Shown here: positions 1,442 to 34,856 of the stretch, in pieces
Position numbering within the stretch: position 1 is the stretch's first letter
How the letters are laid out: each line of letters starts with the position of its first letter
Source: Oligoflexia bacterium
GTDB taxonomy: Bacteria > Bdellovibrionota > UBA1018 > CAIPTA01 > JAALKR01
Length of the DNA stretch: 64,000 nt
Direction of reading: 5' to 3'
Assembly: GCA_011087955.1 (NCBI GenBank)
Contig: JAALKR010000008.1
Coordinates: 4,356 to 68,355 of the forward strand
Position numbers and translations under genes: made by a program
Notes under the pieces: model-generated
Databases searched by the model: none
What the model was told of the DNA's origin: nothing
Seen by the model: only the letters and a program-made list of their open reading frames with translations

Positions 1442-1637
1442 AATTAACTCCCTTATTCATAATTTACGGCTAAAAGCAATTCTTGTGCCCTATTAAGGTA
1501 AAATTAAGAGGGTCTAAGGGAGAAAAATTGTCTTTAATATGGATTTCTAACTGAACCAGCGGTCAAAAAGCTTTCCCCCCTTCGGCTTGCCCTATATACT
1601 TGAATGCGGCTGTTGCAACGCTTGTGGGAGGATATCA

Positions 1638-2396: not shown

Positions 2397-2773
2397 AACA
2401 GATCCCTGAAATTCGGTTAGTAGAAAAACCATGGGGGCATGAAGAGATATTTGCCCACACGAGAGATTATGTTGGGAAAGTTCTAGTCATTAAAGCGGGT
2501 CATGAACTGTCGTTTCAATTTCATAATGTAAAAGAAGAAAGTATTTACGTAACTGAAGGCGAGTTGGCCCTCGAGCTGGAAAACGACAGTGGCGAAGTGG
2601 TGACACATACTTTAAGGCCAGGTCAGGCCGCACATGTTGCACCTAAGAGGAAGCATCGAATGCGAGCTGTCTCCGATTGCCGGATTTTTGAAGTCTCCAC
2701 GCCGTATTTGGATGATGTAGTTCGTTTGGAAGATCGTTATGGAAGAGTAGATAGTTCTGAAAAAACAACATGA
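2393..2773 (+). CDS. Cupin-domain protein (mannose-6-phosphate isomerase type II-like cupin)
   Basis: EKPWGHEEIF...GKVLVIKAGHELSFQFHNVKEESIYVTEGE...PKRKHRM is a cupin two-His signature. The GTG start overlaps the SPOR gene stop, and the junction with the next gene is an ATGA overlap. Confidence 0.7.
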   Translation: MKQIPEIRLVEKPWGHEEIFAHTRDYVGKVLVIKAGHELSFQFHNVKEESIYVTEGELALELENDSGEVVTHTLRPGQAAHVAPKRKHRMRAVSDCRIFEVSTPYLDDVVRLEDRYGRVDSSEKTT

Positions 2774-8859: not shown

Positions 8860-11403
8860 ATGAAGATTTCTCTATCCTGGCTAAAAGAATATGTGGATCT
8901 GCCGCAAAATGTGACGGCGGATAAAATTGCAGAAAAGCTCACTTACGCAGGTCTTGAAGTGGAAGCTATTGAAGACCAAGGTATGGGGCTAGATAAAGTA
9001 TTTGTTGGGGCAGTTTTAGAGAAGAGACAACATCCAAATGCGGATCGCTTGTCACTGACGAAAGTTTCTGTAGGCAAAGCATTAGGAGATGAAGAAAAAA
9101 TCCTCCATATTGTCTGTGGTGCGCAAAATATTGCCAAAGGTCAGAAGGTTCCGGTTGCCACTATCGGCGCAGTGATTCCGGATGGCTTGGAAATTAAGCT
9201 CTCCAAAATTCGCGATGAAACCTCTGAGGGCATGCTTTGCTCACCAACAGAATTGAAAATCAACCATCCCGAAGGTGAAAAAGGGATTTATATCCTCGAT
9301 AATTCTGCTGAGACCGGTACTCCTTTTGCCGAGTACTTGGGAAAGAATGATGTAGTTTTTGATCTCAGCATTACGCCTGATCGAGGCGACGCGCTTTCAC
9401 ATATTGGGGTGGCGCGGGATTTAGCAGCGCTTTTTGATTGCAAGTTAAAGATACCAGAACCGAGACTTTCAGAAATGGAATCCCCTTGCGAAGTGTCTAT
9501 AACCTCGGAGATCCCCAAGCACTGCCCAGCCTATTTTGTTCGCTACATAGAAGGCGTGAAAGTTGGACCAAGTCCGAGCTGGTTGCGTAAACGTATTGAG
9601 GCAATTGGCTTACGCTCAACTAATAATGTTGTAGATATTTCTACCTATGTGATGTTCGAAATTGGACAACCGATTCATACATTTGATGCAAACACACTCG
9701 TGGAAGATAATCGTATTAAGATCACCATTCGAGATGGCAAAGAGGGTGAAGAGTTTCTGACAATTTCTCATCGAGAATTGAATTTAAATTCCAATGACAT
9801 TGTGATTGCTGCTGGCGAGAAGGAACAGATTACAGCCGCAATGGCAGGCGTAATGGGCTCGAATCAAACAGAAGTGTCCGATGCCACTTCAAATATCTTA
9901 ATTGAGTCTGCTATTTTTGATGCAGCCAGAGTGCGTGCAACAAGTCGGAACTATACGATGCTTACAGATGCTGCCTATCGCTTTGAGCGTAAGGTGGATC
10001 CGGCGCGCCTCGCCTGGGCTTGTGATCGCACAGCAGAACTGATTGTGAAGGTTGCAGGTGGCAAGGTTGGCCACCGAGTAGAGAACGCAGAAGCAAAAAC
10101 TGCACTTGAGGTCAACACTCACACAATTACAGTTTCTCTTCGTGAAATTACGCGCCTTCTCGGCAAGGCACCAGAGCCGGCTACCATTACAAAATTAATA
10201 GGGCGGCTGGGGTTTGGTGTAAAGGCACTTGGAGAAGAAGGTTTCGTCTTCACTGTCCCGACCTGGCGGAATGATGTGCATGTTGCGGAAGATATTATTG
10301 AAGAAATTATCCGCCTTTGGGGATTTGATAAATTAACATCAAAATTACCAGAAGCATTTGTCAAAAATGAGACTGCAGTAACTGTGCAAGAACGACAATT
10401 GCGGACAATACGGAAGCTTCTCACCGCTTGGGGATTTTCAGAGGCTTTGAATTTTACATTTACGAATATGGAAGCTGAACTTTTAGGGCTAAACAATTGG
10501 TTAAAGGCCTCTAAGTCAATTGATGATGAAGTAATACAAAAGGAATTGGATAAGGACTTCGTTCGTTTAGAGTCTCCACTCGGGGAAAGCTTTAATTTAT
10601 TACGCCGAGACTTATTGCCAGGGCTTGTGCGCAATGCACGATTAAATGCTTCTCACCGCATGCATGATATTCGTTTCTTTGAGATTCGCCCAACCTTTCA
10701 TTCTGTAGGTCCAACTAAAAAGAGTGATCCACGGACAGAAACCTTAACAAAAGAGAATTTGCGGCTAGCTTTTTTAGCTGGTGGTGCGACGATTCATGAA
10801 GACTGGCAAGGAGAAAAAGACAGCATTCATTTTTACGACATGAAGGGTTGGCTAGAATTAGTCCTTGGCGCTTTTGGTAAACAAAGTGGTGTGCGTTTTG
10901 TGAAGCCTGATAAAGTGGAAGAGATTCCTTATCACATGCACCCTGGGCAAACGGCGTTGCTCATGCAAGGAAATCGACCATTGGGGTACGTAGGACAAGT
11001 CCATCCATACGTATGCAAACAGAACGATATTCGTGTGAACCTCTATGGGGCTGACCTTGATTTAAATTGGGCCCTAAGTTTTGAAGAGCGAAAGCATCGC
11101 TTTAAGACGTTTGGTAAGTTTCCCAATGTGGAACGAGATTTTTCGGCGACAGTTGCAGAATCAATTTCTGCCGACAACTTGCGCAATACGATTAAATCCT
11201 CTGTAAAAGATTTACTGCGAGACATTAAATTCTTTGATGTCTATCGTGGTGAACGGATTCCAAAAGGGCATGTATCCTATGCATTCCGGGTTGTGCTTGG
11301 CTCGGATAAGGGCACGCTAGCGGATAAAGAAGTTCAGGACGTACAACAAAAAATCATCTCTACCCTTCAAGACAAATATCAGGCTCAATTTGCTGGACTC
11401 TAA
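8860..11403 (+). CDS. pheT: Phenylalanyl-tRNA synthetase beta subunit
   Basis: The 847-aa product starts MKISLSWLKEY and has an N-terminal tRNA-binding domain (HPNADRLSLTKV). It lies immediately downstream of pheS. Confidence 0.95.
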   Translation: MKISLSWLKEYVDLPQNVTADKIAEKLTYAGLEVEAIEDQGMGLDKVFVGAVLEKRQHPNADRLSLTKVSVGKALGDEEKILHIVCGAQNIAKGQKVPVATIGAVIPDGLEIKLSKIRDETSEGMLCSPTELKINHPEGEKGIYILDNSAETGTPFAEYLGKNDVVFDLSITPDRGDALSHIGVARDLAALFDCKLKIPEPRLSEMESPCEVSITSEIPKHCPAYFVRYIEGVKVGPSPSWLRKRIEAIGLRSTNNVVDISTYVMFEIGQPIHTFDANTLVEDNRIKITIRDGKEGEEFLTISHRELNLNSNDIVIAAGEKEQITAAMAGVMGSNQTEVSDATSNILIESAIFDAARVRATSRNYTMLTDAAYRFERKVDPARLAWACDRTAELIVKVAGGKVGHRVENAEAKTALEVNTHTITVSLREITRLLGKAPEPATITKLIGRLGFGVKALGEEGFVFTVPTWRNDVHVAEDIIEEIIRLWGFDKLTSKLPEAFVKNETAVTVQERQLRTIRKLLTAWGFSEALNFTFTNMEAELLGLNNWLKASKSIDDEVIQKELDKDFVRLESPLGESFNLLRRDLLPGLVRNARLNASHRMHDIRFFEIRPTFHSVGPTKKSDPRTETLTKENLRLAFLAGGATIHEDWQGEKDSIHFYDMKGWLELVLGAFGKQSGVRFVKPDKVEEIPYHMHPGQTALLMQGNRPLGYVGQVHPYVCKQNDIRVNLYGADLDLNWALSFEERKHRFKTFGKFPNVERDFSATVAESISADNLRNTIKSSVKDLLRDIKFFDVYRGERIPKGHVSYAFRVVLGSDKGTLADKEVQDVQQKIISTLQDKYQAQFAGL

Positions 11404-15606: not shown

Positions 15607-16977
15607 TTAGTCCGTCCTCAAGTATACTATGGGGGGCGGATTATTGTCATTCTTTGAAGTCGTCTTTTCCTGATTGTCTTTGCTCTCTTTGCGAGCCTCG
15701 TCTGGACTCATTAACTTCCGTTGTTCTGGTGGTGCAGCTCCCAATTGTGCGACCCAAACTCGACGAGCATCGCCGCTTTTCGCTTCAATCAGAACACGGA
15801 AAGCGGTTTCAGTAGTGGTCAGAGCTAATTCTCGTTTCTCCAATTCCTTTTTATCGTCTTCCGAGAACTCAAACTCATCCTGCATATATTTCCAAAAATC
15901 TTCAATCTTAGAAAAACCCACTTCTCTGCTATGCTTACTAAGCTGCTGAGTCATATCCTCATTAAAACTTGGAAAGAGTGCTTGAATTAGAGCCTCACTC
16001 ATACGATTAATGTTGATTCCATCCGTGAGTGCTGCAGTAAAATTCTGCGAGACGAATTCCACGAGTTCGTCATCAAAGCCCTTCACCATATGCAATTCAG
16101 ACAAAGAGTAGAGTGGAGCGTTCTTTAGCGCATACGGAGGATCATGATTACTATAAAAGCTTTCCTTAGGTGCGCCTTCAGCGTCCAGAAAAGTTTCCTT
16201 ATCAATCCAAGCGAGAATATTTCCTACTAATTCATCCGCAGTAATAGAGTCATATTTTTGTGCAAAATCTTCGTCATCCTCAAACTTCTTATCCATCAAG
16301 GCTTGCAGGGTCTCACTGATCGTGGCGCGAACGGTTTGCAATCGTTTGCCTCGGTCCTCTTCTGTCTCTTTGTCTGAATCTTCCTCTTTTTCTGAATTTT
16401 CATCGTCATCATCATCTTCGCCCTCCCCATCCTCATCGTCACTGTCTTCATCTTCATCCTTATCACTATCCTTGTCCTTCTTTCTCTCCGCAAGCCAAAT
16501 GAGTCGATTAAGGTTTAATTTCGACGAATCGGGGACAAGCTTTACAGAAACTTGACTGTTGTGAAGCCCCAGTTCTTCATTAAAATTGTCTAAAGCTGAT
16601 CTAGCAACTAAGGTGGCACTGGAGGGTAGAGGGGGGGGTAGAATGAGAGGAATATTATAAATTTGGTTAACATCGGTGTTTTTGACCGGGGAATTTTTAC
16701 CAATCTGTTTAATTTTCTGAAGTGCTTTATTAGCTGCATGCACTTGCAAACGTCCCAGCTGTAGTGCACCTCGAGCTAAGTATTTGGCCCGTAAATTGTC
16801 GACCGTATTATTAACAACCTTTTGATAGACTGCGACCTCATAAATTAACTCCGCCGTTAATATTGCAATCACCGTAACCGTCGTAATGGATAGCATCATT
16901 GCAATACCGTGCTCATTACGCAGCAATTTTTGCATACCTTTCTTATCATTGTGCACTATGGATCGACTCGGCTTCAT
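15607..16977 (-). CDS. gspK: Type II secretion system minor pseudopilin K, with a poly-acidic insertion
   Basis: The N-terminal hydrophobic helix is HGIAMMLSITTVTVIAILTAELIY. Size and position after gspJ fit GspK. Residues 165-211 are an Asp/Glu-rich insert. Confidence 0.75.
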   Translation of the reverse strand: MKPSRSIVHNDKKGMQKLLRNEHGIAMMLSITTVTVIAILTAELIYEVAVYQKVVNNTVDNLRAKYLARGALQLGRLQVHAANKALQKIKQIGKNSPVKNTDVNQIYNIPLILPPPLPSSATLVARSALDNFNEELGLHNSQVSVKLVPDSSKLNLNRLIWLAERKKDKDSDKDEDEDSDDEDGEGEDDDDDENSEKEEDSDKETEEDRGKRLQTVRATISETLQALMDKKFEDDEDFAQKYDSITADELVGNILAWIDKETFLDAEGAPKESFYSNHDPPYALKNAPLYSLSELHMVKGFDDELVEFVSQNFTAALTDGININRMSEALIQALFPSFNEDMTQQLSKHSREVGFSKIEDFWKYMQDEFEFSEDDKKELEKRELALTTTETAFRVLIEAKSGDARRVWVAQLGAAPPEQRKLMSPDEARKESKDNQEKTTSKNDNNPPPIVYLRTD

Positions 16978-22352: not shown

Positions 22353-24917
22353 CTACTCGGAACCTGATGGAACTCCACCAGGCATACCAGAGCTCCTCGG
22401 ATCTTTCCAGAGCGGACTACTTTCCACAGGAGTCGGCGCAAGTTGCTCTAGTGGGAAAGCTTCCTCATCTTTTGGTGGATACTCATCCTCCTCTGGTCGA
22501 ATCGGTGTGATGATCGAAGAACTCGACTTTGAGTCATTTGGTCGAGGATTAATATTCATTAGATTTGGTAGGCTTGCACGCATCTTATTAAGGTAGCGAA
22601 TATTTGGATCACTTCCACCCAGGTGCTCTTGCACATAATCCCCACGCTCGCGTAAGCGCTGCTTGAGCACGTTGCGGATCTTATTGTATTGCTTAATAAT
22701 CTTCGGCGTAATGAAGATCGCAAGATCGGATTTAACCGTCTCGTACTCAGCATTCTTAAAGAGCCAGCCAAGGACTGGAATATCCCCCAGGATCGGTACT
22801 TTATTTATATTCTCCACGCGACTTTCTCGAATTAAACCACTCATTACTACGGTATCTTCGTTTTGTACAATAAGCTTAGTCTTTGTTGATCTTGTTCGTT
22901 TACCAATCGCCTGACCACGGACTTCTGCCGGAGTATTTGTATCATCAAATTCTTCTAGCGTTTGCTCTACATCAAGCCGCACAAAATCAGAGGCCTTATT
23001 AATATGCGGCGTGATCTTTAAGAGCATGCTTGCTTTTTCTTGTTTAAATGAGAAGGAGTCTGCCCCTCCGTTTTGTGAAGCAGTTCGTGTTTGTTGTGGA
23101 ACAGTTTCTGCAATTTCTACTTCTGCTTGCTCGTTGTCCATTGCAATGATTTGCGGTCTTGCAAGTACGTTTGAGTTACCCGTAGATTGCAAGAGTTCGA
23201 CTAGGCCCTGGAGGCCAAACACCTCTCGACTACCAAATGTGACCTTATTACCGCTATTAAAACCAAGTGAAAGGCCAGTGGGGGGAACTCCATCGAGCAG
23301 AGAAAAGAGGTTTTTCGATGGGAAGGCGATGCCGCGGTCAGGGCTAACAACAGAGACACCGAAACCATCGTCATTTCTAAGATTTAGTTCCATAATAATT
23401 GCTTCGACAAATACTTGGTCTCTGGGCACGTCGAGCTGTTCGATCACGCGCTTTATCGTCATAAAATCTTGAGGGGAAGCGGTAATAATAAGCGATTGTG
23501 TTGCCTTATCTGGGCTTACTTTGATTTCACCTTGAAAAATATTGGCTACGAGACCTTCATTACCTGGTGTAAAGCTACCAACTCTACTTCCGGTTCTACG
23601 GCGGCTATTTATTGGTGAGCTATTCTCTTTAGCAATTGCACCCAGTGCTTTGGCTAACTCCTCTGCGTCGGCAAATTCGAGGCGAACCACATGGATGCGA
23701 CCTGAGCCCTGAGAAACAGCGCGTTTTGTATCTAATTTTCTCACAAGCAAGCGAACTTCAACGAGTCCGGCGTTATTGGCTTTCACGATGAGAGAGTTTG
23801 TGCGTTCGTCAGCAATAATTTGCGAGATCGATGCGCCGCCGGCACGCTTAGTGGAATCACTGGAGGAGGTTGAATTGCGTCTTGAAGAACTTCCGCCTCT
23901 CGGTCGTGACCTAGAACGACGACTAGAGCTGGAAGTTCTGGTTTGGCCAAATATAATCTTCTCAATAATTTTTGCTAAATTCTGTGCGTCTGCATATTTA
24001 ATTGGAATTACGGTTAAGCTCTCTTGATAACCACGAACATCGAGCATGCGGATTAGCTCCATAAAGGTTTTAATGTGTGCCGCTGTATCTGTAATAATCA
24101 AAGTATTTGTTTGTTCGTAGGCATACATACGGCCTTGACGTGGGATCCAAAGTCTAAAGGTTTGCTCTACGTCTTTGGCATTAATAAAGCGTAGTGGAAT
24201 GATCCGTGTAATATATTGATCCGTGTCGGGAGCATAGCTGCCGGCATAGAGCGGTACTTGCTTTTCTTTTGCAGCTTGCGCTCGTTCGATTCGTAAATAT
24301 TCACCAGAAGGAATAACTGTGTAGCCTTTCATATCTAAGGCTGTTAGAAAGGCTTTCCAAGCATCATGGACTGTAATTGGTGTTTCCGAAACGATAGAAA
24401 TTCTACCTTTTATTTCTTGTGGATTATAGATAAAATTTCGACCCGTGAGTTTAGAAATTGCTTTTGCTACGTCGAGTAGCTCTGCATTTGGGTAATTAAA
24501 ATTTTCCACAACTTCGCGGTTCTTTGCAAAATCAATGAGCTTTGCTTTTCCAACGGTTAAGACATCTGGACCTTTGCCTGGACGCTCTGAGCTTGCGCCA
24601 AAAGACTTATTATCACGAGAGCCCACTCCACTTGCATTAGAAGATCTATCACTGCGAGAGCTGGATGAGTCTTTCTTTCGTCGATTGCGTAGGCGTTCTA
24701 GAGCACGGGAGCGTCGATCTTTAAAAGCCTCTTTATCGGAACCTGGATTAATCGGCATTTGGCGGAAGGGGTTCGCTTCATCATCTGGGACGCTGCGCTC
24801 GTCTTGCGCATCATCATTAGTATCATCTTGTGCGATAGCTATGGAGGCGCTCAGTGGCAGCGTCAGCAAATCAACAACTAAGAAGAAATAGGCTAGCAAT
24901 GTTTTGCATTTGGACAT
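22353..24917 (-). CDS. gspD: Type II secretion system secretin D
   Basis: It has a signal peptide, N-domains and the secretin C-domain (VPILGDIPVLGWLFKN). Two Ser/Arg-rich low-complexity inserts are present. Confidence 0.95.
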   Translation of the reverse strand: MSKCKTLLAYFFLVVDLLTLPLSASIAIAQDDTNDDAQDERSVPDDEANPFRQMPINPGSDKEAFKDRRSRALERLRNRRKKDSSSSRSDRSSNASGVGSRDNKSFGASSERPGKGPDVLTVGKAKLIDFAKNREVVENFNYPNAELLDVAKAISKLTGRNFIYNPQEIKGRISIVSETPITVHDAWKAFLTALDMKGYTVIPSGEYLRIERAQAAKEKQVPLYAGSYAPDTDQYITRIIPLRFINAKDVEQTFRLWIPRQGRMYAYEQTNTLIITDTAAHIKTFMELIRMLDVRGYQESLTVIPIKYADAQNLAKIIEKIIFGQTRTSSSSRRSRSRPRGGSSSRRNSTSSSDSTKRAGGASISQIIADERTNSLIVKANNAGLVEVRLLVRKLDTKRAVSQGSGRIHVVRLEFADAEELAKALGAIAKENSSPINSRRRTGSRVGSFTPGNEGLVANIFQGEIKVSPDKATQSLIITASPQDFMTIKRVIEQLDVPRDQVFVEAIIMELNLRNDDGFGVSVVSPDRGIAFPSKNLFSLLDGVPPTGLSLGFNSGNKVTFGSREVFGLQGLVELLQSTGNSNVLARPQIIAMDNEQAEVEIAETVPQQTRTASQNGGADSFSFKQEKASMLLKITPHINKASDFVRLDVEQTLEEFDDTNTPAEVRGQAIGKRTRSTKTKLIVQNEDTVVMSGLIRESRVENINKVPILGDIPVLGWLFKNAEYETVKSDLAIFITPKIIKQYNKIRNVLKQRLRERGDYVQEHLGGSDPNIRYLNKMRASLPNLMNINPRPNDSKSSSSIITPIRPEEDEYPPKDEEAFPLEQLAPTPVESSPLWKDPRSSGMPGGVPSGSE

Positions 24918-24939: not shown

Positions 24940-25917
24940 TTACTGGATGTCGTACGTCATATTTATTGTCTGTCGATTGCGCTTAATACAAAGCTCCACG
25001 CGAGTCGTGTTCTTTAAATCTTCAAAAAGTTTTAATGCCTTCGACATATCGCTGATCTCTTCACCATTGATGCCGCAGATAACATCGCCGTTTTTCATGC
25101 CAATCTGATCATAGATGGATCCTGGGGTAATTTGGTAACAACGATAACCGGCAGGACGCCCATTTTCCATATGCGGTGTGCAGCGTGCTTGCGTAAGAAT
25201 TTGACTCAGGTTACTAAGTGCTTTGTCCACTTCGGAGCGATCGATTTGCATTTGTGTTGCCGAAATATTTTTAATCCCAGTGCCAGTCTTCACTGTTTTA
25301 GTGCGTGAGCGAGTGCGGAGCTTTTGTTTCTGTTCAGGCAACTCAATAAATTCTTTTTGATTAGTGCGCTTGTTATAAAAAATAATTCGACCAACTTCGA
25401 TTTCTTTTAGAGTAGCGGTTTTATTAATAGGCTCATTGATCTTTACAGAAATTACTTGCTTAGTGGAGCGATCATTCACAGAGGCTACAGATTTCATGCG
25501 GTCTTTTACAAGGATAATTCCAATTAAATCGAGTGGGAGGCTAGACTTGATAGCTGGGCCACTTAGGTCCATCTCGAAGCTGGCAGTGTCAGGAATCAAG
25601 CCATCCTTGTTAAAAAGGTTTCGGCTCGTGATAATCGAATAATCATCAATTGTTTTCACTCTCTGAGCTTTTCTTGTTTTACGCTTTGCTATCGAATGCT
25701 CGGGAATCATCGGATTTATGAGTGTTGCAGCAAGGTCCGCAGTGAAATAGGAAATAATTGCAATTGTAGCTAAGTTCAGACAGAGTAAAGCTTGCTTATT
25801 AAATTTGAAATCTCGTGGAATGTGACTGAGTTTCGAAGCCTCGGGAAGAGGGCTTAAGCCAGATAGGCGCTTGAGGTCTTTTTGAAAAATCTGTTTAAGC
25901 TTATCCATAAACTTCAT
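24940..25917 (-). CDS. gspC: Type II secretion system protein C (PDZ-containing)
   Basis: It has an N-terminal TM helix (LLCLNLATIAIISYF) and a C-terminal PDZ-like segment (GYRCYQITPGSIYDQIGMKNGDVICGINGEEI). It is the first gene of the operon. Confidence 0.8.
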   Translation of the reverse strand: MKFMDKLKQIFQKDLKRLSGLSPLPEASKLSHIPRDFKFNKQALLCLNLATIAIISYFTADLAATLINPMIPEHSIAKRKTRKAQRVKTIDDYSIITSRNLFNKDGLIPDTASFEMDLSGPAIKSSLPLDLIGIILVKDRMKSVASVNDRSTKQVISVKINEPINKTATLKEIEVGRIIFYNKRTNQKEFIELPEQKQKLRTRSRTKTVKTGTGIKNISATQMQIDRSEVDKALSNLSQILTQARCTPHMENGRPAGYRCYQITPGSIYDQIGMKNGDVICGINGEEISDMSKALKLFEDLKNTTRVELCIKRNRQTINMTYDIQ

Positions 25918-26127
25918 ATAGGGGATTAAGGCAATTTTCGGGCCACACGCAAACGTGCGGACGCAGCTCTCCTCTCAATAGATTTTAAGATTATCGTCGA
26001 GAAAGAAAAAAATGGAAAAAATTACTGAAGAAAGTTCGCTAATTAGGCGAATGCAGTTTCCCCTAGTTGCGAATAAAAGTAATGGGCGTTCTACACAAAA
26101 TAAGGTCTATGGCAAAATGCCAGGAAC

Positions 26128-26150
26128 GGTCGTGACAAAATGTCATGACC
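26128..26150 (+). promoter_or_regulatory. 10-bp-arm imperfect palindrome / RNA hairpin upstream of the helicase-nuclease gene
   Basis: ggtcgtgaca-aaa-tgtcatgacc. The only arm mismatch is a G.U pair if read as RNA. It lies about 180 nt upstream of the ATG at 26327. Function is unknown. Confidence 0.3.
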
Positions 26151-26326
26151 GCATAAATATGCAGGTTGATCAATCCAACCTAAAAATGAGGAAATACTGT
26201 TGAGATAAATTAAAGTCAAAAAAGTAATATGCCGATACCGCAAGGACTATTTGGCCCTTAGGCCGACAGTTTCCACTAAATAATGACATTAGGGTAGACA
26301 AAAGAACAAAGCACAGGTGGCAAAAA

Positions 26327-29300
26327 ATGAATCAAGTCCGAGCCGTTAATTCAAATACTGAATTTGTTCAAGAGTGTATTGAGAAGTATAGAGCGAAGCT
26401 TCTTGATACCTCTCGTAGAAACAGCTTGATATCTTTTAATCATAGTGAGAGATCTCGCCAGCATATCCGTGTAATCGATGAATTGCCGGATTTTCTTTAT
26501 GGTGAATTTTTGAATGGTAAAAAGTTAACATTCCGTGCGTTACCGGAAGAGGATCAGGTTCCACCAGACGAAAAGACCTCGGAATTTTTAAGTCATCTTG
26601 AACAGGCTAAGCTGACTGATGAAGAGTACATCAAGGCCATAGATTCCATTGATGAAGATGAAGAAGGCGCGCTGGATAAGCTCAAAGAAATCGAGCGTGA
26701 GCTTCGCAATAAAATCCGTGAAAATCTGGCGTTGCCTGTATGGAAAGAGCAACAGAGCCTAACCAATACCGAGGTTGCTAAAAAGCATGGTCTTGGCCCC
26801 AGCTATGAAATGCCCGAGCCAAGCACTGAAAATCAGGATAATGCCAATCGCCACATCGATAAATTCATCCAGACGCTTTTGAAGCCTGAGGAAATGTCGC
26901 GAAAATTAGGCGGCTTGAATTCTTATATGCGGACGGATATTGAAGAATCCGGCGTAAACACGCTCTATACCGCCTTTGGGTTTTTGGAGTGGTATGAATC
27001 AGCCGGCTCGGACAAGAAATGCATCTCGCCTTTATTGCTACTTCAGCTTGAAATTGAAAAAAAACAATCTCGCGAAGGATACACATACCATGTTGAGGCT
27101 ACTGGCGAGGAGCCTGAGATCAATCTCCCTTTGTCGGAACGCCTCCGGAACGATTTCGGGATTGAATTGCCTGAATTTAGAGAAGAGGACCGGCCGGAAA
27201 ATTACATGGGTAAAGTGGCTAGGCTCATTGAGAAAGCCAATGTCCCTAAAAAAGAACAATGGAAGATCAGACGCTTTATAACTATAGGCCGCTTCCGCTT
27301 TGCACGACTGGTGATGTTCCATGATCTAAGTGCCAGCAAATGGCCTGGCGATAGCGAGGTTTCCAGCAATGAGATCGTGCAAAGTCTGTTTACCGGATCC
27401 GATAGTGAGCCAAGCGGTGAGCATGCAGAGGATTACAATATCGACACGCCGGAGGTTGAAAAAACCGTTCCGCTGCTGATCACCTCTGCTGACGCTTCGC
27501 AGCACAGCGCCCTGGTCGATGTGATGAAGGGTAAGAGTTTAGCTATTAAAGGGCCACCCGGGACAGGAAAATCCCAGACGATCACGAATATAATTGCCAA
27601 TGCTTTGGCGGCAGGAAAGACCGTTCTTTTTCTTGCAGAAAAGATGGCGGCACTGAATGTGGTGCACTCGCGTTTAAATGGCGCGAATTTAGGCCCGTAT
27701 TGCCTTGAATTGCACTCTACAAAGGCCAAAAAGACGGCGTTGTTAAAATCTATCGAGGAGCGCATTAAACTCCGCCGAGGGCGCGGCAATGGCAGTCGTC
27801 TGGACTCTAAGCTGCAGGACTTTAAACGCCATAGGGACCACATCACGGAATATGTTGATGTGATGAACGCCAATTTTGGGCGGCAGGACAAGCCCGTTCA
27901 TGATTATTTATGGGGAGCGCAGCTTCGTAAAGACCGGATCGGTAATCTTTTATCCTCGATCAACCAGTGCAAAATTCCTTTTGAACAAGCCGATTTAACC
28001 GTCAGCGAATTGAGCGACTATACCGATGAGCTGGAGAGAATTGCAGCGCTTAAAAAACAGGTTGAGAATGATTCAGACAAAAATAAGCACCCATGGGATT
28101 TTATCGGCAATTCCGAGTTAGATCTTTTCCAGCAACGCGACCTGAAATTCACCGTGGAAAAATGGAAAGATGCACTTGAAAAAACCGCGATCGCGCTAGA
28201 GGCGTTTAACAAGGATTTCAGTTTAACTATCGGCGGCACCATACAGGACATCAATGCGTTCTATGATGACCTGAACCAGCTGATTGAGGTTGATGTCGGC
28301 CGGTTGGATGAGGAGTTTATTGCCTCCCTTTTCGATAAGCAGATCGCCGCTGCGATGGCTTCTTTTGTTAAACAGATCCATGTGTACAGAGCGACGAAAA
28401 AAGAAATCCAGTCTTTGCAGAATCTATCGAAGGCCATTGATGCGATCGAAGAGATTGAAAAACAGGTTCTCTTAGCACAGGACCTCAAGGTTGATCATAT
28501 GACTACCCTTGATATTGGGGCGCAGATTAAGAACCTGGAAGAAGAGCGGAAGCTCTGGAATAGGAATTTAAAAAGGCTTCTTGGCATTGGCGAGCGCTTT
28601 GGAGTCTCGGAAAACGAAGATCTCGGCAAAATTTATGCACTGGCAGAAATGGCGGATTACATCTCATCCGTTCCGCGCGATTACTTACTGTTCCGAACAA
28701 GCGATATTATAGATGAAACTAATGCGCCGCGCTTAAAAACCGCCGCCGAAACACAAGAGCGCATCCTATCAAGACTGGAGGATCAGGAGGCACGCTATGA
28801 TCTATCCATGATGGGACAACCGCATGAAATTCGCATGCATGCCGCCGCGCTGGGGAATGCCGGATTCTTTGCTATTTTTAATTCCTCATACCGCCAGGCC
28901 AAAAAGCTCGTCATGCTGGCCTCCAAGCATAAAAGCAAATTCGATGCGGGAAAAGCCGCCAGCACGCTGCACTCGATTGCAGACAACAAAGAAGAAAAAG
29001 AAAAGATCGAACAGGATGGCCAGCTGAGTGATATATGCGGATCCTCATTCAATGGCATGCAAACCGACTTTAAAAAACTGCGGCAGATCAACGAATGGGC
29101 ATCAAGTGTGCGCCAACGCTATTCCTCCGGTGATGAGTTCTCACGCAATGTGCGCCAATGCCTTTTAAAAGGCGGTATGGAGGAGCTGGATTCTGTAAGA
29201 GAGCTGGCGCGTGATGATTGTTTTACTGCGCTGAAAACCAAAATATCTGAGATTACGGGCAGCATTTTACCCGATATACCCGTCAAAAAATATCTAGACG

Positions 29301-31600
29301 GGCTGGTTGGAAAAACCGAAAAGCTCAACACGCTAAAAAACCACTTGCAAAACACAGCCTCGAGCGAGGCTATAACTTATGCAAATATTGCCATGGATCT
29401 GCCTCGTCTTCAAAAGGCCAAGGAAGCACGCGATGGCATTGATCAGGACAAGGCCGTAAAAAAGTTTCTCGGTGATGCCTATAACGGCGCAGACACTAAT
29501 ATTGATGCCTTTGACGAGACAGCACAGTTTGTTGGAGGCTGTTTGGCCATACCGGAGCTGGAGAATGGCTTTGATATGTTTTTGGATACACAGCTCGCAA
29601 AAAAATGGAAACGCTTTAGGGAGCAACTGGAGGCTTTAACCAACATCGTTAAAAAAGCGACTGATGAGGCTTCGGAACTGCATGCACATGCCAACCTTCG
29701 TTTTGGTTCGTCACCCTATGAAAATAACTGGCTGAATATCAAGCTGGAATCGTTGATAAAACAATTATCACAAGCCTTGAAAAATCCGGATGCACTCAAT
29801 CGTTGGGTAAAATTAAATAGCTACTATGCCGAGGCTGCAGAGGGCATCACAGGCAAATTACTTAAAATATATGATCAGGAAAATTTAGACTTCGAAACAC
29901 TGCCGACCGCCTTTGAATATATGGTCTATAGCGCCGTGGCACGCAAAATTTACCAGCGCAATCCGGTTATATTCAAAACAAACGGCATGAGCCTTGAGCA
30001 AGCTAGATCCCGTATTAAAGAACTGGATAAGGAGATTTTGCAGCTTCAACAAGACAAACTATGTAATAAACTCAATAGCGCACGGCCCAGGACTGGAAAT
30101 GGCCATGGCAGAAAAAGCACATGGACAGAAGGTGCTTTACTCCACAACGAGATCAATAAAAAACGCGCTCATCTCTCAATCAGGACATTAATGAAACGCG
30201 CCGGCCAATCGATCCAGAAACTAAAGCCTTGCTTCCTTATGTCACCTTTGACAGTGGCGCAGTATCTAGAACCTGGGAAATTCAAGTTTGATCTTGTGGT
30301 GATCGACGAAGCCTCCCAAATGCGCCCCGAGGATGCGCTGGGTGGCGTGGCGCGTGCAGGCCAGATTGTTGTGGTGGGGGATCCGGAGCAGCTTCCGCCC
30401 ACATCGTTTTTTCAATCCACTGGTAAAGGTGACGACGGTGTGGAGGAAGATTTTACATCCGAAGCCATTATGGATATGGCGCTTTCATCGTTCCGTCCAT
30501 CCCGTATTTTAAGCCGTCATTATCGCTCACAGCATGAGAGCCTGATTGCGTTTTCGAATTATCACTTCTATGACCAGAGCCTTATTTTATTCCCATCGCC
30601 CATCGAAAACCCTGACGAGCTGGGCGTAAAGCTGGAATATGTGGGCGGCAGATATACCTCCAAGTCCAACATGGATGAAGTTAAGGCTGTTGTAAAAGCC
30701 GCGCTTGAGTTTATGCGGAAACATCCGGATAGCAGCCTTGGCATAGCCACCATGAATCAGACGCAAAAAAATCTCATCGAAGATGAGATGGATCGCGCCT
30801 TTATGGAGAATCCGCATGCGGCAAGTTATAAGGCAAAGTGGCAGGACACACTGGAATCCTTCTTTGTGAAAAACCTTGAAAATGTCCAAGGCGATGAGCG
30901 CGATGCTATTTTTATCTCGACCGTGTACGGCTCTGATAAAAACGATATGGTTATGCAGCGATTTGGCTCGATAAACCACGCCGAAGGCCACAGACGATTG
31001 AATGTATTATTCTCCCGCGCCAAGAAAAACATGGTGATCTTCACATCACTAAGGCCAGAGGATATTAAAATCAGCGATACATCGTCCAAAGGCATACACG
31101 CATTGAGAGGTTTTTTGGCCTATGCCTCTGAAGGCATTATGGACGGAGGGCGGCGTGATATAGACGAAGTACCGGACAGCGACTTTGAGGTCTGGGTCAA
31201 AGAAAAACTAGAAAGCATCGGCTGTGAAGTGCATCCGCAAGTGGGTGTGGCCGGATATCGCATTGATCTAGGCATAAAACATTCAAAATATCCGCATGGT
31301 TATCTCCTGGGAGTTGAATGCGACGGTGCCACATATCACTCCTCCAAATCGGCACGTGAACGCGATGTCATCCGCCAGCAAGTACTTGAAGGGCTTGGCT
31401 GGAAAATTTTCCGTATATGGTCAACGGACTGGTTCTCCAATCCTGTGCAAGAATTTGAAAAGCTTAAAAAATACATACAGAAGCTTTTGGAGGACGATGA
31501 CCCACAAGCAACGCCTGAGACGGGCACGGTGATTGAACATGATTTTGTACCCGATGACCAAGATGAGGAGCTTAGCTATCTCGTTAAGGCTGCAAAGTAA
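26327..31600 (+). CDS. DUF4011-like N-terminal region + split SF1 (AAA_11/AAA_12, Upf1-like) helicase + C-terminal DUF559/Vsr-like PD-(D/E)xK nuclease (HheA-like)
   Basis: The ORF encodes 1757 aa, with an AGGTGG SD 8 nt upstream. The N-terminus has KLLDTSRRNSLISF. Helicase motifs are GPPGTGKS (aa 409-416), VVIDEASQ (1324-1331), VVVGDPEQLPPT (1348-1359), VQGDERD (1520-1526) and RRLNVLFSRAK (1556-1566). The nuclease region is YRIDLGI...LGVECDGATYH...GWKIFRIW (aa 1644-1698). Confidence 0.9.
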   Translation: MNQVRAVNSNTEFVQECIEKYRAKLLDTSRRNSLISFNHSERSRQHIRVIDELPDFLYGEFLNGKKLTFRALPEEDQVPPDEKTSEFLSHLEQAKLTDEEYIKAIDSIDEDEEGALDKLKEIERELRNKIRENLALPVWKEQQSLTNTEVAKKHGLGPSYEMPEPSTENQDNANRHIDKFIQTLLKPEEMSRKLGGLNSYMRTDIEESGVNTLYTAFGFLEWYESAGSDKKCISPLLLLQLEIEKKQSREGYTYHVEATGEEPEINLPLSERLRNDFGIELPEFREEDRPENYMGKVARLIEKANVPKKEQWKIRRFITIGRFRFARLVMFHDLSASKWPGDSEVSSNEIVQSLFTGSDSEPSGEHAEDYNIDTPEVEKTVPLLITSADASQHSALVDVMKGKSLAIKGPPGTGKSQTITNIIANALAAGKTVLFLAEKMAALNVVHSRLNGANLGPYCLELHSTKAKKTALLKSIEERIKLRRGRGNGSRLDSKLQDFKRHRDHITEYVDVMNANFGRQDKPVHDYLWGAQLRKDRIGNLLSSINQCKIPFEQADLTVSELSDYTDELERIAALKKQVENDSDKNKHPWDFIGNSELDLFQQRDLKFTVEKWKDALEKTAIALEAFNKDFSLTIGGTIQDINAFYDDLNQLIEVDVGRLDEEFIASLFDKQIAAAMASFVKQIHVYRATKKEIQSLQNLSKAIDAIEEIEKQVLLAQDLKVDHMTTLDIGAQIKNLEEERKLWNRNLKRLLGIGERFGVSENEDLGKIYALAEMADYISSVPRDYLLFRTSDIIDETNAPRLKTAAETQERILSRLEDQEARYDLSMMGQPHEIRMHAAALGNAGFFAIFNSSYRQAKKLVMLASKHKSKFDAGKAASTLHSIADNKEEKEKIEQDGQLSDICGSSFNGMQTDFKKLRQINEWASSVRQRYSSGDEFSRNVRQCLLKGGMEELDSVRELARDDCFTALKTKISEITGSILPDIPVKKYLDGLVGKTEKLNTLKNHLQNTASSEAITYANIAMDLPRLQKAKEARDGIDQDKAVKKFLGDAYNGADTNIDAFDETAQFVGGCLAIPELENGFDMFLDTQLAKKWKRFREQLEALTNIVKKATDEASELHAHANLRFGSSPYENNWLNIKLESLIKQLSQALKNPDALNRWVKLNSYYAEAAEGITGKLLKIYDQENLDFETLPTAFEYMVYSAVARKIYQRNPVIFKTNGMSLEQARSRIKELDKEILQLQQDKLCNKLNSARPRTGNGHGRKSTWTEGALLHNEINKKRAHLSIRTLMKRAGQSIQKLKPCFLMSPLTVAQYLEPGKFKFDLVVIDEASQMRPEDALGGVARAGQIVVVGDPEQLPPTSFFQSTGKGDDGVEEDFTSEAIMDMALSSFRPSRILSRHYRSQHESLIAFSNYHFYDQSLILFPSPIENPDELGVKLEYVGGRYTSKSNMDEVKAVVKAALEFMRKHPDSSLGIATMNQTQKNLIEDEMDRAFMENPHAASYKAKWQDTLESFFVKNLENVQGDERDAIFISTVYGSDKNDMVMQRFGSINHAEGHRRLNVLFSRAKKNMVIFTSLRPEDIKISDTSSKGIHALRGFLAYASEGIMDGGRRDIDEVPDSDFEVWVKEKLESIGCEVHPQVGVAGYRIDLGIKHSKYPHGYLLGVECDGATYHSSKSARERDVIRQQVLEGLGWKIFRIWSTDWFSNPVQEFEKLKKYIQKLLEDDDPQATPETGTVIEHDFVPDDQDEELSYLVKAAK

Positions 31601-31746
31601 AATCCTGCCACCAACGGTGACGTAGTCAATCTGTAAACCATATCAAACAGCTTCACCGTGAGCTGGACGAATGAAGCCTTGGAAACAAAATAATTGGATC
31701 CACTTTTGACGATTGCCATGTTTGTTGTGGTGTTTTTAGGGAGATT

Positions 31747-32196
31747 TTAGCGACGATCAGCAATCGCTACGGAGTCGCCAACGATGACTGTAGGGTATTC
31801 ACCAATTGGCGTTTTCGCGGGTGGAAGAACTTCAATAATACGTCCGACAGACATATCACTCTCAGCGTGAATAATACGAAGCTTAGCAAATTTGAAAGTG
31901 ATACCATGGGCGTTGCGGTTATTAAGGTTGTCGGAGCTTGTTATAGAACGAAACACATCGAGGACAGAGCCAACTTTCACGCCTGCATTACTGCCGATAT
32001 TAACGTAGAAATCTCGACGAGGACGCTCTCCATCAGCCATAGGAATCTCTGTCTTAACACCAAAAACAATATGCTCAGGAGCAGCCTTCGCTTCCAGTGA
32101 GCCGATTAATTCATTTCCTGGCGCCACAAATACTAGTGCCAGAAGAGCTGTAAAAAAAATCGTGTAAATAAATTTTATTTTAAGAAAACTCCACAT
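31747..32196 (-). CDS. Hypothetical exported protein
   Basis: The signal peptide is MWSFLKIKFIYTIFFTALLALVFVAPG. I recognise no family. Confidence 0.6.
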   Translation of the reverse strand: MWSFLKIKFIYTIFFTALLALVFVAPGNELIGSLEAKAAPEHIVFGVKTEIPMADGERPRRDFYVNIGSNAGVKVGSVLDVFRSITSSDNLNNRNAHGITFKFAKLRIIHAESDMSVGRIIEVLPPAKTPIGEYPTVIVGDSVAIADRR

Positions 32197-33573: not shown

Positions 33574-33906
33574 TTGCAACTACTTCAGGTAGTTGAGAAA
33601 GCGAATGTTGATCTACCAGTGGAGTTGTACGTGGCCAAATTAGATAAGTCTCAAGGTTTTACCTTTGTCTGCACCGACCTATATGAACCCTATCAAAAAA
33701 CAAAAGAAAGCGAAGCTGCCCTAAGGGATATCGAAGTTGCAAGCCCTTTAGTAGTGAAGCGTCCCAAAGCAGCAAGACGTAAAGCCATTCCTTCTGCAAT
33801 GGATCCTTTAGAGTCCCTGCGTAAAAACATTGATAGGCTAGGTGAAGCGCAAAGTCGTCTACGTTTTTTGATCCAAGAATTAGATAATCTTACAAAAAAT
33901 AGGTAA
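33574..33906 (+). CDS. Hypothetical small protein with a coiled-coil C-terminus; start uncertain
   Basis: The track ORF starts at a TTG with no SD. GTG at 33619 and GTG at 33631 are alternative starts. The C-terminus DPLESLRKNIDRLGEAQSRLRFLIQELDNL has a heptad-like pattern. Confidence 0.4.
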   Translation: MQLLQVVEKANVDLPVELYVAKLDKSQGFTFVCTDLYEPYQKTKESEAALRDIEVASPLVVKRPKAARRKAIPSAMDPLESLRKNIDRLGEAQSRLRFLIQELDNLTKNR

Positions 33907-33950
33907 ACTAATCTTGGTTGTGGGTTGAGCTATTGGAGGGGCAGCTAGGG

Positions 33951-34856
33951 ATGGCTACAAAATCGTTTGCGTACGGGCATTTCTGTCAAAACTGTCGGAA
34001 ACCGCTTGATTTGGATGACCAGGTTTATTTTGTAGAAGATAAAACGGGCAACTATTTCTGTTCCGAACCTTGTATACAAAAATTCTACGGCCCAATGGCT
34101 CGCTTCTATTACCAAGAACATCAGAAACTACGTGACCCACACGATATCCACGAACAGGACTTTGAGCAGTTTGAGAAATATTCGATTTTAACCGTAGACT
34201 CCCCGGATGAGCTTTGGCTTGAAAAAAGCAACGCAAGTGAGGAATATTATTTCTATATTAAAGAGTTTTCCAATCCGGGTGGAAAGTTCTATTACGTGAT
34301 CATGACTTTTTGTTTAGAGCGGGATCCGACTTTCGTGCTACTTTCGATCCCAACGCGGGACAAACGAATCCTCGATCATTATCGTCGAGGAAAGCGTTTA
34401 GCAAAGCAAGGCGAGGAGCAGGAAGCTCCATTGCCAGTGAATTATCTGGCTCAGCAATCAAAAACTCCTCAGCACGAAAACCTAATGAGTGAACGAGCAA
34501 TGGCACTAAAAGAGGAAATGCTCCGCAACCGCCGCCAGGAAGATATCGATACACATAAATTTGATGAACACTCCTATTTACTGGATGAAACAATCGAGAA
34601 CCCGGATGAAGCCTGGGAAATGGAAGTCGGCGAAAAAGGGGATGACTCAATTTTGACTTTGATTACGCAACACGACGATCGCTTGCACTATATCGTGATT
34701 TGCGGGGTCGATGACCATTCAGACACGGATACTCCAGCCTGGCGTGTGCTCTATCACTTTCCTACAGGAGATGCGGGACTCGTGCAGCATTACCGCAGAG
34801 GAATGCCGAAAGCGGGAGTAACACCCAATCACACAGCACCTGAGGCGATTCACTAG
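33951..34856 (+). CDS. TRASH/FCS-type zinc-finger protein with two internally duplicated ...PDExW...HYRRG domains
   Basis: The ATG at 33951 follows GGAGGGG. CQNC-x21-CSEPC fits C-x2-C-x19-22-C-x3-C. Two homologous ~70-aa repeats each end in HYRRG. Confidence 0.7.
   Translation: MATKSFAYGHFCQNCRKPLDLDDQVYFVEDKTGNYFCSEPCIQKFYGPMARFYYQEHQKLRDPHDIHEQDFEQFEKYSILTVDSPDELWLEKSNASEEYYFYIKEFSNPGGKFYYVIMTFCLERDPTFVLLSIPTRDKRILDHYRRGKRLAKQGEEQEAPLPVNYLAQQSKTPQHENLMSERAMALKEEMLRNRRQEDIDTHKFDEHSYLLDETIENPDEAWEMEVGEKGDDSILTLITQHDDRLHYIVICGVDDHSDTDTPAWRVLYHFPTGDAGLVQHYRRGMPKAGVTPNHTAPEAIH

What the first reader, a model, noticed from the sequence alone, without database searches (positions are those of the whole stretch)
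26327..31600. Stand-alone 1757-aa DUF4011-like / split SF1 helicase / PD-(D/E)xK nuclease gene: candidate single-gene (Hhe-like) defence locus
Seen in sequence:
- It is one uninterrupted ORF with its own SD.
- It is divergent from gspC across a 409-nt spacer and convergent with the next gene, so it forms a monocistronic unit with no operon partners.
- Its neighbours are unrelated in function: a T2SS operon on one side and unknown secreted proteins on the other.
- The N-terminal ~330 aa (KLLDTSRRNSLISF, NTLYTAFGFLEW) look like DUF4011.
- A full SF1 motif set is present: GPPGTGKS, VVIDEASQ, GDPEQLPPT, YRS, VQGDERD and NVLFSRAK.
- Residues ~1618-1705 (YRIDLGI...VECDGATYH...GWKIFRIW) match the DUF559/Vsr-like restriction-endonuclease fold.

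Established knowledge:
- As far as I recall, DUF4011 + helicase + Vsr-like nuclease is the architecture of HheA, the one-protein Hhe anti-phage system reported by Gao et al. 2020. Its trigger and mechanism remain uncharacterised.
- Helicase-nuclease fusions are a recurrent defence-effector design.

Inference:
- This is a defence-type gene.
- It appears to lack the DUF3320-type tail I associate with the family. Only about 50 acidic residues follow the nuclease.
- It carries an exceptionally long insertion in the helicase core (reported separately), so it may be a divergent subtype.
Basis: partly seen in the sequence, partly recalled or inferred. Interest (0 to 1): 0.75.

Follow-up and report, generated by a model that had tools for sequence, protein, structure and literature searches.

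The report
Acquired Hhe-like helicase-nuclease defence gene
This is a single, intact 1757-residue helicase-nuclease gene of the Hhe anti-phage superfamily that was inserted on its own into a conserved spot next to the type II secretion operon of an Oligoflexia-like bacterium. It is a believable but untested defence gene of a known kind, not a new kind of system.

Summary
The 918 residues between Walker A and motif II are a family-wide, all-helical module, also present in bona fide Hhe, so they do not mark a special subtype.

The protein is collinear with plasmid-borne Hhe at 33% identity. It scores below NCBIfam's equivalog cut-offs for Hhe (1344 vs 2000 bits) and ProA (1085 vs 1500 bits). It therefore sits in a separate branch of the superfamily.

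Its closest relatives (59-81% identity) mostly end in a GreA/GreB C-terminal domain. This copy lacks that domain.

Three related genomes keep the same neighbours (orf375, orf149, gspC, gspD, gspE) but have no such gene. Here a block of about 5.5 kb (about 26189..31708) holding only this gene has been inserted.

Relatives lie in prophages, an integrase island with restriction genes, and a phage head module, in genomes of 35-68% GC. dN/dS against the nearest relative is 0.09.

Verdict: an accessory, horizontally acquired, probably functional single-gene defence candidate, and a new member of a known kind. Its trigger and mechanism remain inferred.

The parts
26189..31708 (+). Inserted single-gene block (about 5.5 kb; boundaries approximate to a few tens of nt): 138 nt of 5' leader, the gene, and about 108 nt of 3' sequence
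   Evidence: Alignment with the gspC upstream regions of three relatives that lack the gene. Native intergenic sequence runs 25918..~26188 on the left and ~31709..31746 on the right. No tRNA, integrase, target-site duplication or terminal repeat was found.
26315..26320 (+). Shine-Dalgarno-like AGGTGG, 6 nt before the ATG
   Evidence: Read directly from the sequence.
26327..31600 (+). CDS of the 1757-aa Hhe-superfamily helicase-nuclease (stop codon included)
   Evidence: dN/dS is 0.09 against the 81%-identical relative in L002.
26396..27145 (+). DUF4011 N-terminal domain (aa 24-273; the folded N-terminal module extends to about aa 380)
   Evidence: Pfam PF13195, E 5e-35. AlphaFold model pLDDT 86, pTM 0.76. 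No fold match at E <= 1e-3 in PDB or BFVD.
27491..27733 (+). First part of helicase domain 1A, with Walker A GPPGTGKS (aa 409-416, nt 27551-27574)
   Evidence: Pfam AAA_30/AAA_19. The Walker A columns are invariant in 77 sequences.
27734..30193 (+). All-alpha-helical module of about 820 aa inserted in domain 1A (aa 470-1289), at the position of the 1B/1C accessory domains of Upf1-like helicases
   Evidence: DSSP of model m136f70951667, pLDDT 86. Homologous region found in 984 representative clusters. dN/dS 0.11.
30194..31063 (+). Rest of domain 1A and domain 2A (aa 1290-1579), with motif II DEAS (aa 1327-1330, nt 30305-30316), GDPEQLPP, HYRS, QGDERD and RRLNVLFSRAK
   Evidence: Pfam AAA_11 and AAA_12. 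Foldseek matches to Senataxin/Sen1, Dna2, Upf1 and IGHMBP2 at E 1e-9 to 6e-11.
31184..31474 (+). MTES_1575 / Vsr-like PD-(D/E)xK nuclease (aa 1620-1716; D1647, E1664, D1666)
   Evidence: Pfam PF18741, E 1e-35. Motifs align with Hhe.
31475..31597 (+). Short acidic tail (aa 1717-1757), ending where the closest relatives continue into a GreA/GreB C-terminal domain
   Evidence: Alignment A1. PF01272 in P0002 at 1771-1832.
25918..26188 (.). Native gspC upstream region, not part of the insertion, holding two conserved 13-nt palindromes (26110-26122, 26133-26145)
   Evidence: Conserved in L093, L094 and L095. Unique in the window.
31747..32196 (-). Native flanking gene orf149 (small protein with a signal-peptide-like N-terminus). 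In relatives it lies directly upstream of gspC.
   Evidence: tblastn 62-77% identity in L093, L094 and L095.

Best explanation
The gene is a horizontally acquired, stand-alone member of the DUF4011 / SF1B helicase / Vsr-like nuclease superfamily, whose tested member is the one-protein anti-phage system Hhe. It most likely protects the cell against phages or other invading DNA.

Proposed working, by step:
1. The Upf1/Dna2-like motor uses ATP to move 5'->3' along single-stranded nucleic acid exposed in replicating or recombining foreign DNA (inferred from the fold family).
2. The C-terminal PD-(D/E)xK nuclease cuts DNA (inferred from conserved catalytic residues and from the reported loss of defence in a nuclease-site mutant of E. 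coli Hhe).
3. The N-terminal DUF4011 module and the 820-aa helical module inserted in helicase domain 1A hold the enzyme inactive, or select the substrate, until infection-specific DNA metabolism appears (inferred only).

Shown here: domain identity, intact motifs, purifying selection along the whole gene, accessory status at this locus, and the mobile-element or defence context of relatives.

Not shown: any anti-phage activity, the substrate, or the trigger.
For: **Domains and family scores.**
- Pfam finds DUF4011, AAA_11/AAA_12 and MTES_1575.
- NCBIfam Hhe_antiphage matches in one collinear stretch, aa 18-1726 to model positions 2-1689, at 1344 bits.
- PADLOC gives PDC-S37 1215 bits and Hhe 912 bits.
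- The protein is 33% identical to PGAP-named Hhe over aa 178-1750.
- The helicase core matches Senataxin/Sen1, Dna2, Upf1 and IGHMBP2 by fold and by sequence.

**The gene looks functional.**
- dN/dS against L002 is 0.09 overall. By region: DUF4011 0.064, helical module 0.114, nuclease 0.063.
- All catalytic columns are conserved.

**Accessory status.**
- Three contigs with GspC orthologues (76, 71 and 64% identity) have orf375-orf149-gspC-gspD-gspE with 216-279 nt between orf149 and gspC. None has an Hhe-like gene.
- The junctions were mapped.
- DNA similarity to the nearest homologues covers only the gene body, 26363..31482.
- GC3 is 0.498, the highest of the 39 long ORFs scored in the window.

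**Mobility and defence context of relatives.**
- L001: integrase plus D5 primase island with GmrSD and an Eco57I-type restriction-modification gene.
- L002: MmeI, Mrr and GmrSD_N next to prophage tail and lysis genes.
- L087: serine recombinase plus phage lysozyme.
- L089: between phage terminase and portal. L090: next to a phage integrase.
- 562 plasmid records hold a match.
- Host flanks range from 35 to 68% GC while the gene stays at 42-55%.
- No conserved partner gene is present.

**Literature.**
- Hhe protects against lambda, T3, T7 and PhiV-1, and E1731A abolishes protection (bioRxiv 10.1101/2022.06.16.496414).
- Candidate triggers lie among T7 class II DNA-metabolism genes (PMC11482910).
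Against: - There is no functional test.
- Scores fall below both curated equivalog cut-offs: Hhe 1344 against 2000 and ProA 1085 against 1500.
- PDC-S37 is an untested candidate. Its profile does not discriminate, because true Hhe scores 1290 on it.
- In this genome the gene is not in a defence island. Its neighbours are T2SS genes, native secreted-looking proteins and lnt, and the window further holds pheT, metG and secA. No flanking ORF hits PADLOC.
- A large DUF4011 gene is a core gene in all P. aeruginosa isolates (PMC10250203), so the architecture alone does not prove defence.
- This copy lacks the C-terminal domain that its closest relatives carry, which could impair it.
- The compositional deviation is modest.
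- The three comparison genomes are only 64-76% identical in GspC, so the insertion may be old and fixed in this species.
Confidence: 0.72

Rival explanations
1. A housekeeping DNA repair or replication helicase-nuclease, working like Dna2 or like the core DUF4011 gene of Pseudomonas aeruginosa, with no role in immunity.
For: The helicase core matches Dna2 and Senataxin by fold. The gene sits in a chromosomal region of core genes. A DUF4011 gene is core in P. aeruginosa. It is under strong purifying selection.
Against: It is absent from the same locus in three syntenic relatives. The nearest homologues sit in prophages, integrative islands, a phage head module and plasmids, in hosts of 35-68% GC. 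DNA similarity to those homologues stops at the gene ends.
Confidence: 0.07
2. A weapon or selfish cargo of mobile elements rather than a host defence. It would be carried by phages for superinfection exclusion or competition between elements. It may even promote its own movement with its helicase and nuclease, which would explain an insertion of one gene with no recombinase.
For: Relatives lie inside phage genomes and at prophage ends. The inserted block here holds only the gene, with no integrase, tRNA or repeats. Homology between loci is confined to the gene.
Against: Here it is not on a recognisable mobile element. No terminal repeats or target duplication exist that would suggest transposition or homing. 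Exclusion of rival phages is still defence from the cell's point of view. Ordinary recombination during transfer can leave a single gene behind.
Confidence: 0.12
3. A functionally impaired or decaying copy. Loss of the GreA/GreB-like C-terminal domain disabled the system and the ORF merely persists.
For: The closest relatives (59-81% identity) end in PF01272 and this copy stops in the linker before it.
Against: The 1757-codon ORF is intact with all motifs. dN/dS is 0.09 in every region. Other full-length relatives (P0009, P0012, P0017) also lack the tail, each ending at a different point. Bona fide Hhe has no Gre domain at all. A test for a remnant of the tail after the stop codon was not significant.
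Confidence: 0.09

Closest known systems
Hhe, the one-protein anti-phage system (Gao et al. 2020; NCBIfam NF042953; PADLOC PDLC02194)
   Same: Single gene. Same order of DUF4011, split Upf1-like SF1 helicase with about 900 aa between Walker A and motif II, and MTES_1575/Vsr-like nuclease. Collinear alignment at 33% identity over aa 178-1750.
   Different: It scores half as much as true Hhe: 1344 against 2744 bits on NCBIfam and 912 against 2444 on PADLOC. It lacks Hhe's tail of about 120 aa after the nuclease. The host is an Oligoflexia-like bacterium, not an enterobacterial plasmid.
Anti-phage protein ProA (NCBIfam NF058533)
   Same: Shares the helicase C-terminal half and the nuclease (best stretch aa 995-1732 to model positions 973-1718, 1085 bits).
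   Different: The score is below the 1500-bit cut-off, as it is for every relative tested. The model is longer at both ends (1903 positions). I could not find the paper that describes ProA.
PADLOC PDC-S37, an untested 'phage defence candidate' found by guilt-by-embedding
   Same: Best-scoring PADLOC profile, 1215 bits.
   Different: The profile is generic for the superfamily: true Hhe scores 1290 on it. PDC systems are predictions without experimental support (bioRxiv 10.1101/2024.01.29.577857).
Upf1-like SF1B helicases (Senataxin/Sen1, Dna2, Upf1, IGHMBP2)
   Same: The RecA-like core matches by fold (E 6e-11 to 1e-9) and by motifs. Accessory modules are inserted in domain 1A. Dna2 also couples a PD-(D/E)xK nuclease to the motor.
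   Different: The inserted module here is about 820 aa and all-helical, against roughly 100-200 aa for 1B/1C (their usual size is from my own knowledge). The nuclease is C-terminal and of the Vsr/MTES_1575 type. An N-terminal DUF4011 module is present with no structural match.
Core DUF4011 gene flanking defence hotspot cDHS1 of Pseudomonas aeruginosa (Johnson et al. 2023, PMC10250203)
   Same: A large DUF4011 protein encoded in the chromosome.
   Different: That gene is present in every isolate. This one is absent from three syntenic relatives.

Membership tests
Hhe (single-protein anti-phage system) | Acts as a single gene, with no conserved partner | tested here: met
   The gene is divergent from gspC and convergent with orf149. 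The inserted block holds only this gene. Upstream and downstream genes differ among five relatives, and only L002 and L087 share a neighbour.
Hhe (single-protein anti-phage system) | N-terminal DUF4011 domain | tested here: met
   PF13195, aa 24-273, E 5e-35, 121 bits against a cut-off of 22.
Hhe (single-protein anti-phage system) | Upf1-like SF1 helicase with intact ATPase motifs, split by a long insertion | tested here: met
   AAA_30/AAA_19, AAA_11 and AAA_12. Walker A lies at 409 and DEASQ at 1327, against 440 and 1379 in PGAP-named Hhe. Fold matches to Sen1, Dna2 and Upf1.
Hhe (single-protein anti-phage system) | C-terminal Vsr-like / MTES_1575 nuclease with catalytic acidic residues | tested here: met
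   PF18741, E 1e-35. D1647 and E1664-C-D1666 align with IDL and ECDG of Hhe.
Hhe (single-protein anti-phage system) | Tail of about 120 aa after the nuclease (DUF3320-like in part of the family) | tested here: not met
   Only 41 residues follow the nuclease. There is no DUF3320 hit. The Hhe tail has no counterpart in the alignment.
Hhe (single-protein anti-phage system) | NCBIfam equivalog score of at least 2000 bits | tested here: not met
   1344 bits. True Hhe scores 2744.
Hhe (single-protein anti-phage system) | Protects against phage, dependent on the nuclease site | not testable with these tools
   Known only for E. coli Hhe.
ProA (NCBIfam NF058533) | Equivalog score of at least 1500 bits | tested here: not met
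   1084.8 bits in two stretches.
PADLOC PDC-S37 candidate | Best match to profile PDLC05009 | tested here: inconclusive
   It is the top PADLOC hit at 1215 bits. True Hhe scores 1290 on the same profile, and no curated cut-off is available here.
Accessory (non-core) defence gene | Presence/absence polymorphism at a conserved locus | tested here: met
   L093, L094 and L095 have orf149 directly upstream of gspC, and tblastn finds no hit for the protein.

The most novel reading that the evidence does not exclude
The gene may belong to a third, uncharacterised branch of the Hhe superfamily that is neither an Hhe nor a ProA equivalog. Members of this branch ancestrally carry a GreA/GreB C-terminal domain, the module that anchors Gre factors on RNA polymerase (that role is from my own knowledge). 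If the tail does the same here, these helicase-nucleases would patrol transcription complexes, much as the structurally closest helicase Sen1/Senataxin acts on RNA polymerase. The window copy would then be a natural tail-less derivative that has uncoupled from polymerase. A separate reading, still not excluded, is that the protein mobilises its own gene. That would explain a clean one-gene insertion with no recombinase.
Probability: 0.12. Interest if true: 0.65.

Novelty: new member of a known kind. Interest (0 to 1): 0.3.

Why it matters
Hhe is one of the Gao 2020 systems for which I found no published mechanism, and Foldseek found no close solved structure in the PDB copy up to April 2026.

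- This locus gives a clean natural experiment: one gene inserted into an otherwise conserved site, in a little-studied predator-related phylum.
- It shows that the huge helical module and DUF4011 are conserved under purifying selection across the superfamily.
- It points to a sister group whose members carry a GreA/GreB-type tail, a testable lead on how such enzymes find their targets.
- For genome annotation, it shows that proteins scoring half the Hhe cut-off still carry the full catalytic set and behave as mobile accessory genes.

It does not change what is known about defence systems.

Tried and rejected
- **Genome scan with GspC.** No relative was found.
- **Genome scan with GspE.** The best hit was 69% identical, in an Oligoflexia MAG. 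That contig ends 524 nt upstream of gspE, so it gave no synteny.
- **Exact-sequence look-ups.** The Hhe-like protein and GspF are not on record, so the window's own genome seems to be withheld.
- **Metagenome scan with GspD.** It returned only two short contigs, 100% identical and pointing away from the locus.
- **Remnant of a lost Gre-type tail after the stop codon.** tblastn ran through the stop to 31633. However, 277 of 300 shuffles reached the same score, so I dropped the idea.
- **Island hallmarks.** No tRNA was found. Repeats were at chance level only. There was no consensus promoter or terminator beyond expectation and no Rfam match in the window.
- **Defence genes among the neighbours.** PADLOC and NCBIfam found nothing in ORFs between 31747 and 41779.
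- **Fold of DUF4011.** A confident model gave no match at E <= 1e-3 in PDB or BFVD.
- **Literature.** Nothing was found on PDC-S37 or ProA. No plasmid record is annotated as ProA.
- **A conserved upstream partner (T5orf172 / DUF4357).** Only L002 and L087 share it, so I rejected it as a system component.
Full report
**Observation.** The window holds one uninterrupted ORF at 26327..31600 on the + strand (ATG, 1757 aa). AGGTGG lies 6 nt upstream of the start (26315-26320). The ORF is divergent from gspC (24940..25917, -; T2SSC plus PDZ domains) across 409 nt. It is convergent with a 149-aa ORF (31747..32196, -) 146 nt downstream.

Pfam finds these domains:
- DUF4011, aa 24-273, E 5e-35
- AAA_30/AAA_19, aa 389-449
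- AAA_11, aa 1316-1360
- AAA_12, aa 1391-1573
- MTES_1575, aa 1620-1716, E 1e-35
- no DUF3320

**Family placement.** NCBIfam's Hhe_antiphage model aligns in one collinear stretch (aa 18-1726 to positions 2-1689 of 1797). The score is 1344 bits against a curated cut-off of 2000. ProA scores 1085 against 1500. In PADLOC the best profile is PDC-S37 (1215 bits), then Hhe (912).

To calibrate these scores I fetched PGAP-named Hhe genes from Klebsiella plasmids. True Hhe scores 2744 bits on NCBIfam Hhe, 2444 on PADLOC Hhe and 1290 on PDC-S37. Four relatives of the window protein score 1334-1455, 895-979 and 1206-1338 respectively. So PDC-S37 is a generic profile for the superfamily. It is also an untested 'guilt-by-embedding' candidate. 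The window protein belongs to a branch that is neither an Hhe nor a ProA equivalog.

Pairwise, the protein is 33% identical to Hhe over aa 178-1750 with the same Pfam set.

**The 'exceptional insertion'.** Walker A and motif II are 918 residues apart here (409 to 1327) and 939 apart in Hhe. The region alone (aa 470-1289) finds 984 representative clusters at E <= 0.001 and 488 at E <= 1e-10. Nearly all are proteins of 1650-2100 aa matched at the equivalent position. An AlphaFold model of aa 380-1579 (pLDDT 86) shows the region to be all-helical. The RecA-like parts match Senataxin/Sen1, Dna2, Upf1, IGHMBP2, Aquarius and nsp13 at E 6e-11 to 1e-7, as does a sequence search. The insertion is therefore a family-wide module at the place where Upf1-like helicases carry their 1B/1C accessory domains. 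It does not mark a subtype.

The N-terminal 400 residues fold confidently (pLDDT 86, pTM 0.76). They have no structural match in PDB or BFVD at E <= 1e-3.

**Is it a working gene?** Against the closest homologue with DNA in hand (L002, 81% identical), dN/dS is 0.09. By region it is 0.064 for the DUF4011 region, 0.114 for the helical module, 0.053 for the helicase C-terminal part and 0.063 for the nuclease. Walker A, DEAS, GDPxQLPP, HYRS, QGDERD, RRLNV, D1647 and E1664-C-D1666 sit in invariant or nearly invariant columns of a 77-sequence alignment.

**C-terminus.** About 45 of the 119 listed relatives carry PF01272, the GreA/GreB C-terminal domain, after the nuclease. These include the closest ones (59-81% identity). 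P0068 has both that domain and DUF3320. The window protein stops in the linker before this domain. Three other full-length relatives also lack it, each ending at a different point. A possible remnant after the stop codon did not survive a shuffle test. Loss here is the parsimonious reading, but it is not proven.

- The host is an Oligoflexia/Bdellovibrionota-like bacterium. Its GspE is 69% identical to one in an Oligoflexia MAG, and named GspC homologues come from Oligoflexia and Bdellovibrionota.
- Direct scans failed. GspC orthologues at 76, 71 and 64% identity led to three contigs.
- All three have orthologues of orf375 and orf149 followed by gspC, gspD, gspE and so on, with 216-279 nt between orf149 and gspC. 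tblastn finds no Hhe-like sequence on them.
- One contig also keeps the PBECR2, orf110 and orf237 orthologues.
- Aligning the intergenic DNA places native sequence at 25918..~26188 and ~31709..31746. The window therefore carries an insertion of about 5.5 kb (about 26189..31708) made of 138 nt, the gene and about 108 nt.
- There is no tRNA, integrase, target duplication or terminal repeat.
- DNA similarity to the nearest homologues (81% and 73%) covers only 26363..31482.
- GC3 (0.498) is the highest, and codon fit among the lowest, of 39 ORFs in the window. The two flanking native genes fit best. The deviation is modest.

**Context of relatives.**

| Locus | Context |
|---|---|
| L001 (74% identity) | integrase plus D5-primase island with GmrSD and an Eco57I-type enzyme |
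| L002 (81%) | beside MmeI, Mrr, GmrSD_N and T5orf172, abutting prophage lysis and tail genes |
| L087 (75%) | serine recombinase upstream, phage lysozyme downstream |
| L085 | next to an N6_N4 methylase with a RAMA domain |
| L086 | next to DUF4917 |
| L089 (IMG/VR contig) | between terminase and portal |
| L090 (IMG/VR contig) | next to a phage integrase |

In addition, 562 plasmid records hold a match. Flanking GC ranges from 35% to 68% while the gene stays at 42-55%. No neighbour is shared across these loci except between L002 and L087. This is the pattern of a mobile, single-gene accessory function that travels with defence genes and phages.

**Mechanism.**
- *Shown:* a complete SF1B motor, a complete Vsr-type nuclease and two large conserved non-catalytic modules, all under purifying selection.
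- *From the literature:* E. coli Hhe protects against lambda, T3, T7 and PhiV-1, and needs its nuclease glutamate. T7 class II DNA-metabolism genes and Bas63 g40 behave as candidate triggers.
- *Inferred:* the enzyme is kept inactive by DUF4011 and/or the helical module. It loads on single-stranded regions of replicating or recombining foreign DNA, translocates 5'->3' and cuts DNA.

**Weaknesses.**
- There is no functional test.
- Family scores are below the curated thresholds.
- There is no defence island in this genome. The neighbours and the wider window are T2SS, lnt, pheT, metG, secA, prkA and tex, and the flanking ORFs have no PADLOC hits.
- A DUF4011 gene is core in P. aeruginosa.
- The tail found in the closest relatives is missing here.

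**Verdict.** This is a new, divergent and tail-less member of a known kind of single-gene helicase-nuclease defence system. It was cleanly inserted next to the T2SS operon of an Oligoflexia-like genome. Interest is moderate to low. The most useful leads are the GreA/GreB-type tail in sister proteins and the well-defined empty site for testing how the gene arrived.

Noticed in passing
window 26110-26122 and 26133-26145: Two 13-nt palindromes, TGGCAAAATGCCA and TGACAAAATGTCA, lie 23 nt apart (start to start) in the native gspC upstream region. They are conserved in the gspC upstream regions of three related genomes and are unique in the window. They are probably an operator or promoter element of the gsp operon. 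The Hhe-like gene was inserted about 45 nt to their right.
   Followed up: partly
relatives P0002-P0008, P0026, P0056-P0072 and others; L001 and L002 10001-15511: About 45 of the 119 listed relatives end in a GreA/GreB C-terminal domain (PF01272, passing Pfam's cut-off in P0002 and P0068). I found no description of this helicase-nuclease fusion in the searchable literature. It suggests docking on RNA polymerase. P0068 carries both the Gre domain and DUF3320.
   Followed up: partly
L089 3188-8755 (IMG/VR UViG_3300027968_000109): An 1855-aa relative (43% identity) sits between the large terminase gene (1128-3101) and the lambda-type portal gene (8912-10327) of a phage contig of about 68% GC. The gene itself is 52.5% GC, so it looks like foreign cargo inserted in the head module.
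   Followed up: partly
window 33918-34856 (+), with 33574-33906 (+): A 312-aa ORF has two PBECR2 (Barnase/EndoU/colicin-like nuclease) stretches and an N-terminal Cys-rich segment, preceded by a 110-aa ORF. Both are conserved (68% and 52%) at the same locus in relative L094, so they are native genes and not part of the insertion.
   Followed up: partly
window 15607-16977 (-) and 22353-24917 (-): The GspK-like protein carries a run of about 50 residues made almost entirely of Asp/Glu. GspD has a long Ser/Arg-rich low-complexity insert and an extended N-terminus. Both are unusual features for T2SS components.
   Followed up: no
L091, L092 (WLWG01022649.1, WLWF01019364.1): Two short metagenome contigs are 100% identical to the 3' part of gspD. 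The same organism is therefore present in those public metagenomes, although its genome could not be retrieved from the collections.
   Followed up: no
window 26012-26203 (+): A 63-aa ORF with no recognisable domain overlaps the conserved palindromes in the native intergenic region. It is probably not a gene.
   Followed up: no
L085 15974-16453: In one relative that lacks the Gre-type tail (P0009), the Hhe-like gene lies two genes away from the host's own greA. This is probably coincidence.
   Followed up: no
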